38,467 nt of DNA from a virus (taxonomy: Duplodnaviria > Heunggongvirae > Uroviricota > Caudoviricetes): the IMG/VR virus record IMGVR_UViG_2850796239_000007, positions 1-38,467 of that record. One strand, 5' to 3'. Both the position numbers and the translations under genes were made by a program. This document shows positions 18,270 to 19,359 of the stretch, piece after piece. Below the pieces are notes generated by a model, which saw only the letters and a list, made by a program, of their open reading frames with translations, ran no database searches and was not told the origin of the DNA. How positions within the stretch are numbered: the stretch's first letter is position 1; each line of letters starts with the position of its first letter.

Positions 18270-19359
18270 TGAGCAGACCGGACTGGGGGGCGTTGCAGCA
18301 GGAGTATATTGCTGAATACACCCGCTCCGGTATATCTCCGGTGGCATGGTGTGAAGCAAGGGGACTGAATTACGCAACAGCCCGTCGTTACATCAAAAAA
18401 CCTCCGAAAAATGCGCAGACAGAAATGCGTAAAACTGCGCAACAAAGTGCGCAGAAAAAATCTGCGCAGACTGCGCAAAAGCGGAACGGAAAATCTCAGA
18501 AAAAAAGCCAGTATCCGATGCGTGCCTGAATGAGGGCGACGCGGAGGAATTTTCGTTCTGCCCCGATGAATTCGGCATTTCTGACCAGCAGGCTAAGTTT
18601 GCGATGCTTGTTGCTCAGGGGAAAAAGCCGACAGAGGCATACCGACTGGCTGGTTATGAGGGGCAAGGTGCGACAGCTAACAGCAACGCCAGCCGTATGC
18701 TTAGAAATGCCAGGGTTTATCGTGCTATCAGTTACTTCCGCAATCAGTATCAGAAACGCTATACCGCAGACCTGGATTTACTGGTGAGTCAGTTGATGGC
18801 TATTGTCCAGGCCGACCCCAATCAGTTGGCACAATTTCGCCGTGTTAACTGCCGTTATTGCTGGGGCGAGAATCATCTCTACCAGTGGCGTGATATTGCA
18901 GAATTCGATAAGGCAGCGGCACAGGCCTCCAGAGATGGCAAACCCGAGCCGGAATATGGAGGCCTCGGCTTTGTTGATAACGCCATACCCAATCCGGATT
19001 GTCCGAAGTGCTGCGGTGAGGAAACGGGACAGCTTTATATGGCTGATACCACTCTGCTTGATGGGGATGCGCGACAATTATATGCAGGGGCAAAGCTCGG
19101 GAAATTTGGTGTTGAGATCCTGCTGGAGGATAAGGCTGCCGCCCGGCGCGAACTTATCAAGCTGATAATGGCGACGAAAGGAAGTTCTGCTGGTGGTGCA
19201 ACTGACAGTCGCAATGATCTGGAGCTTGAAGGACTGAGGCTTCGCAACGAAAAGCTGCGCACTGAGATTGAAAACCTCAAAAAAGGCGTGGGTGGTGAGA
19301 ATAACGAAATAATTATCCACAACTCTCTGCCGATGCCGGGAGTGGATAATGTCGATTGA
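18269..19359 (+). pseudogene. terminase small subunit, reading frame split at A7 run
   Basis: N-terminal HTH-like ORF 18269..18529 and Terminase_2-like ORF (…PTEAYRLAGYEG…ASRMLRN…) continue in different frames across GAAAAAAAG at 18497..18505. Confidence 0.5.

What the first reader, a model, noticed from the sequence alone, without database searches (positions are those of the whole stretch)
18497..18510. Terminase small subunit split across two frames at an A7 run
An N-terminal HTH-like ORF (18269..18529) and the Terminase_2-like body (open in another frame from 18433, first ATG at 18604) overlap at GAAAAAAAG (18497..18505). This could be a pseudogene, transcriptional slippage, or a homopolymer sequencing error.
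Basis: seen in the sequence. Interest (0 to 1): 0.35.

Follow-up and report, generated by a model that had tools for sequence, protein, structure and literature searches.

The report
Frameshifted terminase gene in dead prophage
A phage DNA-packaging gene (small terminase) in a decayed Shigella prophage has lost one A from a run of eight and is split in two; this is a real, inherited, ordinary pseudogene, not a recoding signal and not a sequencing error.

Summary
An A7 run at 18500..18506 lies where an 86-aa ORF (18269..18529) and the Terminase_2 body (-1 frame, ending at 19359) overlap. Intact homologs carry A8 (or G+A7) at this spot and encode one protein of 363-364 aa from the same ATG to the same stop. 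These are hundreds of E. coli, Salmonella and Escherichia genomes, 80 of 80 IMG/VR contigs and seven species representatives of Enterobacteriaceae and allied genera. The window therefore carries a 1-nt deletion.

The deletion is not a sequencing error. The same A7 allele is present in seven independent assemblies, including Shigella boydii ATCC 9905 and four SRA runs.

It is not programmed recoding either. There is no canonical heptamer, no stimulatory structure, the run is only 7 nt, and no homolog conserves the split.

The prophage is otherwise wrecked, with two IS insertions, two nonsense codons, further frameshifts, a deletion and a truncation.

One-A losses recur on several E. coli haplotypes, so the tract is a mutational hot spot.

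More interesting is a side observation. Just 5' of the run, the terS linker carries an array of TGCGCA hexamers conserved at the DNA level. This is a candidate pac site.

The parts
18269..18529 (+). 5' fragment of terS. Codons 1-79 are native (N-terminal HTH-like domain plus part of the K/Q/A-rich linker). They are followed by 7 out-of-frame codons (SQYPMRA) and a premature TGA at 18527..18529.
   Evidence: tblastn of the intact TerS gives residues 1-79 in frame 2. PHROG 51 profile positions 1-81, E 7e-31.
18500..18506 (+). The A7 run, site of the 1-nt deletion. Intact alleles have A8 here (CAG AAA AAA AAG = Q K K K).
18508..19359 (+). Remainder of terS in the -1 frame (residues 81-363 of the intact protein). 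It holds the Terminase_2 HTH, the core and a Cys4 insertion. The stop is at 19357..19359.
   Evidence: tblastn residues 57-363 in frame 1. PDB Pam5 small terminase aligns weakly to residues 108-165 (E 0.12).
18604..19359 (+). The 251-aa ORF as a gene caller sees it. It starts at M113, inside the first helix of the Terminase_2 HTH. Only a weak AGG lies 11 nt upstream.
   Evidence: Body-only homologs all start 4-15 residues before that helix.
18412..18477 (.). Array of five TGCGCA hexamers and one TGCGTA (TGCGCA in intact L004), spaced 9-15 bp with A-rich spacers, inside the linker-coding DNA. Candidate pac / TerS recognition array (inferred).
19349..20676 (+). terL, also split (19349..19687 and 19732..20676) by G6 to G5 at 19664..19668. 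This lesion is unique to this assembly.

Best explanation
The window comes from a chromosome identical to CP026875.1 (GCA_002950355.1). Its nearest named relative here is Shigella boydii ATCC 9905.

The terS gene of its Rac-like prophage lost one A from an A8 tract, most likely by replication slippage. This step is inferred from the homopolymer context and from recurrence. The loss shifts the frame after codon 79. Translation from the native ATG 18269 then runs 7 wrong codons and stops at 18527..18529. The product is an 86-aa fragment that keeps only the N-terminal HTH-like domain.

The Terminase_2 body has no start codon until M113, which lies inside its first HTH helix and has a poor ribosome-binding site. 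No functional small terminase is therefore expected (inferred).

The lesion is real and inherited, being shared by two Shigella sub-lineages. It is recent, because the repaired gene differs by 1 nt from intact alleles. It sits in a prophage that is dead for many other reasons, so nothing selects against it.
For: (1) Intact orthologs have A8 and one ORF of 363 aa from the same ATG to the same stop. An example is WP_000089453.1 in E. coli EC11 and GmM062. The only indel in the gene is at the A-run.

(2) The single-ORF architecture is general.
- The 120 best protein hits are 351-378 aa at 100% coverage, in E. coli, Salmonella, E. albertii and E. marmotae.
- 80 of 80 IMG/VR loci are single ORFs of 355-364 aa.
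- Species representatives from Serratia, Superficieibacter, Buttiauxella, Erwinia and Izhakiella (44-54% identity) are single ORFs of 285-347 aa.

(3) A7 is reproduced in L005 (S. boydii ATCC 9905 draft), L006, L007 (CP026831.1) and four Logan assemblies of separate SRA runs. One of those contigs was seen in 9 samples.

(4) The repaired gene differs from intact IMG/VR alleles L025/L026 at one codon only.

(5) The prophage is decayed relative to the intact relative L004:
- an IS110-family insertion at 23492..24941;
- an IS5-family insertion at about 27959..28883;
- CAG to TAG nonsense codons at 27019 and 29704;
- two frameshifts at 25734 and 25844;
- a 75-nt deletion near 31609;
- truncation after about 33844.

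(6) One-A losses occur on at least four other haplotypes in complete E. coli genomes: ETEC1747, ETEC1703/1706 and STEC367 from A8, and Ec1120 from G+A7. PGAP annotates all of them as 'frameshifted'.
Against: No expression data were available, so a low level of full-length TerS from spontaneous transcriptional or ribosomal slippage on A7 cannot be excluded.

In the second Shigella sub-lineage (L007, L008, L010, L011) terL and the start of the portal gene are still intact next to the A7 terS. The element was therefore not necessarily dead when the frameshift arose.

With only 1-3 substitutions since the lesion, relaxed selection on terS itself cannot be demonstrated.
Confidence: 0.9

Rival explanations
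1. Homopolymer sequencing or assembly error: the genome really has A8 and the gene is intact.
For: All five single-base differences from L004 in the aligned 13 kb are deletions in the window, and four of them lie in homopolymers. The neighbouring terL G5 is unique to this assembly, while the 99.98%-identical L005 and L009 have G6. This assembly therefore may carry such errors.
Against: The same A7, giving the same 86-aa product, is found in seven independent assemblies from different projects and runs. Two of them are 99.98% identical to the window and differ from it only at the terL G-run. Other long homopolymers in the window (A7 at 28995, G6 at 31499, T8 at 32645) match L004 exactly.
Confidence: 0.02
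2. Programmed recoding: full-length TerS is made on purpose from the A7 allele. The route would be either transcriptional slippage (insertion of one A) or -1 ribosomal frameshifting, as with Shigella mxiE or E. coli dnaX.
For: A -1 shift, or one extra A in the mRNA, anywhere in the run gives exactly the intact protein. Lys codons in A-runs are intrinsically shift-prone (own knowledge). Baranov et al. note that some 'authentic frameshifts' at slippery runs may still be expressed (PMC1088944).
Against: - The split is not conserved. Every other lineage has an in-frame tract, and the tract itself varies (A8, G+A7, A6, absent).
- The run is 7 nt, below the roughly 9 nt at which slippage becomes selectively visible.
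- The zero frame reads CAG|AAA|AAA|AGC, so there is no X_XXY_YYZ heptamer.
- The 84 nt 3' of the run fold no better than shuffles (z +0.41).
- Only a GGA lies upstream, not a Shine-Dalgarno-like stimulator.
- The prophage cannot make particles anyway.
Confidence: 0.03
3. Domain fission into two working genes: a stand-alone N-terminal HTH protein plus a body-only small terminase.
For: Distant relatives in Moraxellaceae, Acinetobacter, Collimonas and a MAG lack the N-terminal domain altogether and are body-only TerS proteins of 241-300 aa. The body can therefore work alone in principle.
Against: Those body-only proteins all begin 4-15 residues before the first HTH helix. Here the first available start (M113) lies inside that helix, behind a weak AGG with an 11-nt spacer. 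No homolog has the two-gene arrangement. PGAP calls the equivalent E. coli alleles pseudogenes.
Confidence: 0.02
4. Phase variation: the A-tract is a contingency locus that switches terS, and hence packaging or transduction, ON and OFF.
For: Tract-length changes recur on several haplotypes.
Against: OFF alleles are rare. About five were seen among roughly 622 E. coli genomes carrying this region, and 56 of 57 full-length rows in an evenly spread sample have the in-frame length. Within the Shigella clade the allele is fixed at A7 in all seven assemblies, with no ON revertants. Many lineages interrupt or lack the tract.
Confidence: 0.03

Closest known systems
Intact terS of Rac-like E. coli prophages (WP_000089453.1, 363 aa; PHROG 51; Pfam Terminase_2 PF03592)
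   Same: Same gene, same start and stop, and the same neighbours (a small hypothetical gene upstream; terL overlapping its 3' end; then the portal gene). Identity is 98-99% after repair.
   Different: The window lacks one A of the A8 tract and so encodes 86-aa and 251-aa fragments.
PGAP-annotated 'frameshifted' terS pseudogenes in E. coli ETEC1703, ETEC1706, ETEC1747, STEC367 and Ec1120
   Same: The same tract has lost one A and the gene is split in the same way.
   Different: They sit on different flanking haplotypes, so they are independent events (or, for some, possible long-read errors). The Shigella allele is corroborated by several independent assemblies.
Transcriptional slippage sites (Shigella flexneri mxiE T9, Thermus dnaX A9) and -1 PRF sites (E. 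coli dnaX A_AAA_AAG, IS elements)
   Same: A homopolymer lies in the overlap of two ORFs, and a -1 or +1-nt event would fuse them (PMC1088944).
   Different: The run is shorter (7 nt), the heptamer is not in phase, there is no stimulator, and the split is not conserved in homologs.
pac sites embedded in terS genes (P22 22-bp pac in gene 3; SPP1 multi-contact pac; P1 pac hexamer repeats). This entry is for the side observation only.
   Same: A cis element lies inside the terS coding region and is made of several short contacts. PMC9611059 covers P22 and SPP1. The P1 hexamer repeats and SPP1 A-tract bending are own knowledge.
   Different: Here the element is 4-6 TGCGCA hexamers with A-rich spacers in the linker between an extra N-terminal HTH domain and the Terminase_2 domain. 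No experiment links it to packaging, and no paper in the searched library mentions it.

Membership tests
Small terminase, Terminase_2 (PF03592) / PHROG 51 | Profile match above the curated threshold | tested here: met
   The repaired protein scores 36.4 bits against a cut-off of 26.1 (residues 122-311). PHROG 51 gives E 1.7e-71 over residues 1-302.
Small terminase, Terminase_2 (PF03592) / PHROG 51 | Gene immediately upstream of, and overlapping, terL in a head-morphogenesis module | tested here: met
   The terS stop is at 19359 and the terL start at 19349. The portal gene (Phage_portal_3) follows.
Small terminase, Terminase_2 (PF03592) / PHROG 51 | Uninterrupted reading frame giving a complete HTH plus oligomerisation core | tested here: not met
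   The frame breaks after codon 79. The next start lies inside HTH helix 1. By descent this is a member of the family, but a pseudogene.
Frameshift pseudogene | Orthologs with a single intact ORF, and the indel localised | tested here: met
Frameshift pseudogene | Lesion reproducible in independent sequence data | tested here: met
   Seven assemblies carry A7.
Frameshift pseudogene | Loss of function or relaxed selection | tested here: inconclusive
   The surrounding prophage carries at least 7 other disabling lesions. terS itself has too few substitutions since the lesion to measure dN/dS. There are no expression data.
Programmed -1 ribosomal frameshift site (dnaX / IS type) | X_XXY_YYZ heptamer in phase with the zero frame | tested here: not met
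   The zero frame is CAG|AAA|AAA|AGC, and the base before the first AAA is G.
Programmed -1 ribosomal frameshift site (dnaX / IS type) | Stimulatory 3' structure and/or 5' Shine-Dalgarno-like element | tested here: not met
   The 3' 84 nt fold at -22.6 kcal/mol against a shuffle mean of -23.9 (z +0.41). Only GGA lies 10 nt upstream.
Programmed -1 ribosomal frameshift site (dnaX / IS type) | Split-ORF arrangement conserved among homologs | tested here: not met
   All homologs are in frame.
Transcriptional-slippage recoding site | A or T run long enough for efficient slippage (about 9 or more in most bacteria) | tested here: not met
   The run is 7 nt. The threshold is from PMC1088944.
Transcriptional-slippage recoding site | Heterogeneous mRNA run length | not testable with these tools
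   This needs cDNA sequencing.
pac site inside terS (side observation) | Sequence element conserved at the DNA level beyond what coding needs | tested here: met
   - The hexamer occurs in all three reading frames.
- Synonymous-codon randomisation gives a mean of 0.2-0.7 copies against 4-6 observed. No randomisation out of 20000 reached the observed count for L004, L014 and L015.
- 5 of the window's 15 TGCGCA lie within 66 bp.
pac site inside terS (side observation) | Packaging series initiates at or near the element, and TerS binds it | not testable with these tools
   This needs virion DNA end mapping and binding assays.

The most novel reading that the evidence does not exclude
The A-run is not an isolated accident of lysine codons. 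It is the last A-tract of a cis-acting DNA element embedded in terS.

The element is an array of 4-6 TGCGCA hexamers with A-rich spacers (window 18412..18477, possibly extending to the tract at 18500). It may serve as the pac site and be read by the extra N-terminal HTH domain of this TerS family.

On this reading, DNA-level selection for A-tracts keeps a slippage-prone homopolymer inside the coding sequence. That would explain why terS is knocked out again and again at this spot. It would also leave room for a trickle of full-length TerS from A7 alleles by slippage.
Probability: 0.3. Interest if true: 0.45.

Novelty: already known. Interest (0 to 1): 0.1.

Why it matters
For the finding itself the stakes are small. 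It is a correct call of a frameshifted small-terminase pseudogene in a defective prophage, of the kind annotation pipelines already flag.

Its practical value is threefold:
- It shows that the lesion is genuine and clade-wide in Shigella. It can serve as a lineage marker and should not be 'polished' away.
- It shows that the adjacent terL frameshift is probably an assembly error.
- It documents a recurrent mutational hot spot in a terS allele present in hundreds of E. coli genomes.

The side observation could matter more. It is a DNA-level hexamer array inside terS that covaries with the N-terminal domain. It gives a directly testable prediction of the packaging recognition site for the very common Rac-like prophage family.

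Tried and rejected
- **Sequencing error.** Rejected by exact-protein look-up, which returned seven independent A7 assemblies.
- **-1 PRF signals.** Rejected. There is no in-phase heptamer, no 3' structure and no Shine-Dalgarno-like element.
- **Conserved slippery site.** Rejected. The tract varies or is absent in in-frame homologs.
- **Two-gene architecture in homologs.** Searched in E. coli genomes, phage records, IMG/VR and GTDB species representatives. None was found.
- **dN/dS between the two A7 sub-lineages and intact alleles.** Uninformative, with only 1-6 differing codons.
- **PDB sequence search.** It gave only one weak hit, the Pam5 small terminase at E 0.12. This was useful only for placing HTH helix 1.
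- **Pfam on the N-terminal domain.** No hit, so 'HTH-like' rests on PHROG matches and a weak phrog_32288 hit.
- **Literature searches.** Searches for the assembly accession, for Rac-SA53 packaging and for TGCGCA plus terminase found nothing relevant.
- **Counting A7 versus A8 by identity bands of short BLAST queries.** This gave only rough numbers because flanking SNPs blur the bins. I relied on spans and on fetched examples instead.
- **Structure prediction.** Not run. Only near-identical homologs could have been supplied as an alignment, and the result would not have changed the verdict.

Full report
**Observation.** The sequence at the reported place reads ...AATCTCAG AAAAAAA GCCAGTATCCGATGCGTGCCTGA....
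- ORF1 runs 18269..18529 (86 aa).
- The -1 frame is open from 18433. Its first ATG, GTG or TTG is ATG 18604, and it ends at 19359.
- ORF1 alone matches PHROG 51 ('terminase small subunit') at profile positions 1-81 (E 7e-31).
- Adding one A gives a 363-aa protein. It matches the same profile across positions 1-213 (E 1.7e-71) and Pfam Terminase_2 at residues 122-311, at 36.4 bits against a cut-off of 26.1.

The two ORFs are therefore two pieces of one gene family, not a chance overlap.

**What intact relatives look like.** Megablast against 5,426 complete E. coli genomes finds the region in 896 of them. In E. coli EC11 and GmM062 the annotated gene is a single 1092-nt 'terminase small subunit' (WP_000089453.1). 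It runs from the same ATG to the same stop, overlaps terL by 11 nt, and is followed by the portal gene. Pairwise alignment shows exactly one indel within the gene, at the A-run: A8 in the intact gene and A7 in the window.

The single-chain architecture is general.
- The best 120 protein hits are 351-378 aa at 100% coverage, from E. coli, Salmonella, E. albertii and E. marmotae.
- All 80 IMG/VR loci retrieved translate as one ORF of 355-364 aa.
- Species representatives at 44-54% identity (Serratia, Superficieibacter, Buttiauxella, Erwinia, Izhakiella) are single ORFs of 285-347 aa with the same MS(K/R)PD(W/E) N-terminus.

**Is the deletion real?** Exact look-up of the 86-aa product returned eight contigs.
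- One (L006, CP026875.1, 5.16 Mb) is 100% identical to the window over 6.3 kb and is evidently its source.
- L005 is the older draft of Shigella boydii ATCC 9905 (product EFW53626.1).
- L007 is another complete chromosome (CP026831.1).
- L008-L011 are Logan assemblies of four different SRA runs, and one of those contigs recurs in nine samples.

All seven loci carry A7. L005 and L009 are 99.98% identical to the window and differ only by one base elsewhere. L007, L008, L010 and L011 form a second sub-lineage (98.8-98.9% identity) and share A7 too. A homopolymer sequencing error is therefore excluded for this site. The allele is inherited within a Shigella clade. The repaired gene differs from intact IMG/VR alleles (L025, L026) at a single codon, so the lesion is evolutionarily recent.

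**Context: a dead prophage.** I aligned the window to the intact 41-kb relative L004, a Rac-like prophage with recET, kilR, a lysis cassette and myovirus-type tail genes. The comparison shows the following lesions:
- terL is split by G6 to G5 at 19664..19668.
- A 1450-nt IS110-family element is inserted at 23492..24941, in the DUF2213 head gene.
- There are two single-base deletions, at 25734 and 25844, in the next gene.
- There is a CAG to TAG nonsense codon at 27019, in the 342-aa gene 26281..27306 that I take to be the major capsid gene (L004 annotates it only as hypothetical).
- An IS5-family element is inserted at about 27959..28883.
- There is a second CAG to TAG nonsense codon at 29704.
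- There is a 75-nt deletion near 31609.
- Homology is lost after about 33844, within a 691-aa gene that I take to be the tape-measure gene (also annotated as hypothetical).

The window holds at least seven IS copies of three families (IS3, IS5, IS110), as expected for Shigella. Nothing here can select for a working terminase. The terL G5 is the one lesion absent from the near-identical L005 and L009. It is either very recent or an assembly error.

**Is it recoding?** A -1 ribosomal shift, or one untemplated A in the mRNA, would regenerate the native protein, so I tested this possibility.
- The zero frame is CAG|AAA|AAA|AGC. The base 5' of the first AAA is G, so there is no in-phase X_XXY_YYZ heptamer.
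- The 84 nt downstream fold no better than dinucleotide shuffles: -22.6 kcal/mol against a mean of -23.9, z +0.41.
- Upstream there is only a GGA.
- Selection against slippage-prone runs becomes visible at about nine nucleotides in many bacteria, and the used sites are 9A or 9T (PMC1088944). This run is seven.
- Most tellingly, the split is not conserved. Among in-frame homologs the tract is A8, G+A7 (seen in BE2-5/L193 and in about half of the IMG/VR loci, and probably the commonest E. coli form), A6 with substitutions, or absent.

Spontaneous low-level slippage cannot be excluded without expression data, but nothing marks it as programmed.

**Consequences for the protein.**
- The 86-aa product keeps the N-terminal domain only.
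- The weak PDB match (Pam5 small terminase, E 0.12) aligns residues 108-165 to the terminase HTH.
- Distant body-only homologs (Moraxellaceae, Acinetobacter, a MAG) begin 4-15 residues before the helix equivalent to ISDQQAKFAMLVA.
- ATG 18604 is the M in FAMLVA, so it lies inside that helix. It is preceded only by AGG with an 11-nt spacer. The native start, by contrast, has AGGA with a 7-nt spacer.
- A functional body-only terminase from this allele is therefore unlikely. This is an inference.

**A hot spot.** In complete E. coli genomes the 98-nt segment around the tract is present in 622 genomes. In an evenly spread sample, 56 of 57 full-length rows have the in-frame length. One-A-shorter alleles occur in ETEC1747, ETEC1703/ETEC1706 and STEC367 (derived from A8) and in Ec1120 (derived from G+A7). 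They sit on at least four different flanking haplotypes, and PGAP annotates every one as 'frameshifted'. Some of these may be long-read errors, but together with the Shigella allele they indicate recurrent slippage at this tract. They are too rare and too fixed to suggest phase variation.

**Side observation.** Immediately 5' of the run, the linker-coding DNA carries TGCGCA at 18412, 18436, 18448, 18463 and 18472, and TGCGTA at 18426 (TGCGCA in L004). The spacing is 9-15 bp with A-rich spacers.
- The whole 38-kb window has only 15 TGCGCA, which equals the chance expectation. A third of them therefore sit within 66 bp.
- In the 41-kb L004, 6 of 13 copies are in this linker. In the Serratia locus it is 5 of 5, and in the Superficieibacter locus 4 of 4.
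- The hexamer occupies all three reading frames, encoding A-Q, M-R, L-R and C-A.
- I randomised synonymous codons of the very same peptides using the prophage's own codon usage. This gives a mean of 0.2-0.7 hexamers against 4-6 observed. The observed count was reached in 0 of 20,000 trials for L004, L014 and L015, and in 12 of 20,000 for L016.
- Lineages with a different N-terminal domain carry a different repeat at the same place. The Erwinia/Izhakiella type has GGGGCA/TGCCCC (3 of 20,000 trials), and L108 has TTCGCA/TGCGAA.

The repeat is thus selected at the DNA level and covaries with the N-terminal HTH-like domain. pac sites of headful phages are known to lie inside terS (P22) or to consist of several contacts (SPP1) (PMC9611059). 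The P1 pac site is built of hexamer repeats (own knowledge). I therefore read the array as a candidate pac / TerS recognition site, at roughly 30-40% confidence and with no experimental support. The A8 tract may simply be one of its A-tracts.

**Verdict.** This is an ordinary, already well-understood kind of lesion, so interest is low. The hexamer array is the item worth a follow-up.

Noticed in passing
window 18412..18477 (also L004 20213..20278; L014, L015, L016, L017, L108 at gene nt about 135-210): There is an array of 4-6 TGCGCA hexamers with A-rich spacers inside the terS linker. It is conserved down to about 52% protein identity and occurs in all three reading frames. It is far above what synonymous-codon randomisation of the same peptide gives (0 of 20,000 trials). 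Lineages with a different N-terminal domain have a different hexamer (GGGGCA or TTCGCA) in its place. Candidate pac / TerS recognition site.
   Followed up: partly
window 19664..19668: terL is split (19349..19687 and 19732..20676) by G6 to G5. Unlike the terS lesion, this one is absent from the 99.98%-identical S. boydii ATCC 9905 draft (L005) and from an SRA assembly (L009). It is probably an assembly error or a very recent mutation.
   Followed up: partly
window 23492..24941; about 27959..28883; 25734; 25844; 27019..27021; 29704..29706; about 31609; about 33844: The rest of the morphogenesis module is wrecked. It has an IS110-family and an IS5-family insertion, two more 1-nt deletions, two CAG to TAG nonsense codons, a 75-nt in-frame deletion and a truncation within the 691-aa gene I take to be the tape-measure gene.
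   Followed up: yes
window 6100..7024, 8659..9583 (inverted), 27959..about 28883; A7 runs at 6509..6515, 9168..9174 (as T7), 28368..28374: There are three identical copies of a roughly 925-bp IS5-family element. Its transposase is in two overlapping ORFs (for example 6163..6612 and 6492..7007, with a -1 relation). An A_AAA_AAC heptamer lies in phase in the overlap. This looks like a genuine programmed -1 frameshift or slippage site, in contrast to the terS run.
   Followed up: partly
window 16511..17986: A TrkH-family potassium transporter gene sits between the lysis cassette and terS. It looks like trkG of the K-12 Rac prophage (own knowledge, not tested here). It occupies the place where the intact relative L004 has ParB/Srx-like and GREB1-related genes, so it is a moron-like cargo replacement.
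   Followed up: no
window 20691..22130; L001 4997.., L004 22498..23934: RefSeq/PGAP names the gene after terL 'anti-CBASS protein Acb1 family protein', whereas the precomputed Pfam hit for the same 478-aa product is Phage_portal_3. Either this is a portal-Acb1 naming artefact or a fusion worth a look.
   Followed up: no
L002, L003, L190, L191, L192 (E. coli ETEC1747, ETEC1706, ETEC1703, STEC367, Ec1120): The same tract has lost one A on at least four other haplotypes in complete E. coli genomes. All are annotated 'frameshifted'. STEC367 additionally has enterotoxin genes inserted just upstream and a 5'-truncated terS.
   Followed up: partly
L019-L024 (Moraxellaceae, Acinetobacter tandoii, Collimonas spp., a Pseudomonadota MAG): Distant homologs of the Terminase_2 body lack the N-terminal MS(K/R)PDW domain entirely. 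That domain, and with it the hexamer array, is an add-on of the enterobacterial clade.
   Followed up: partly
window 13784..14980 and 23483..24712: There are two copies of an IS110-family transposase gene, which NCBIfam calls an 'RNA-guided transposase'. One copy is inserted in the prophage head gene. The 300-nt stretches compared are 100% identical (13798..14097 = 23530..23829).
   Followed up: no
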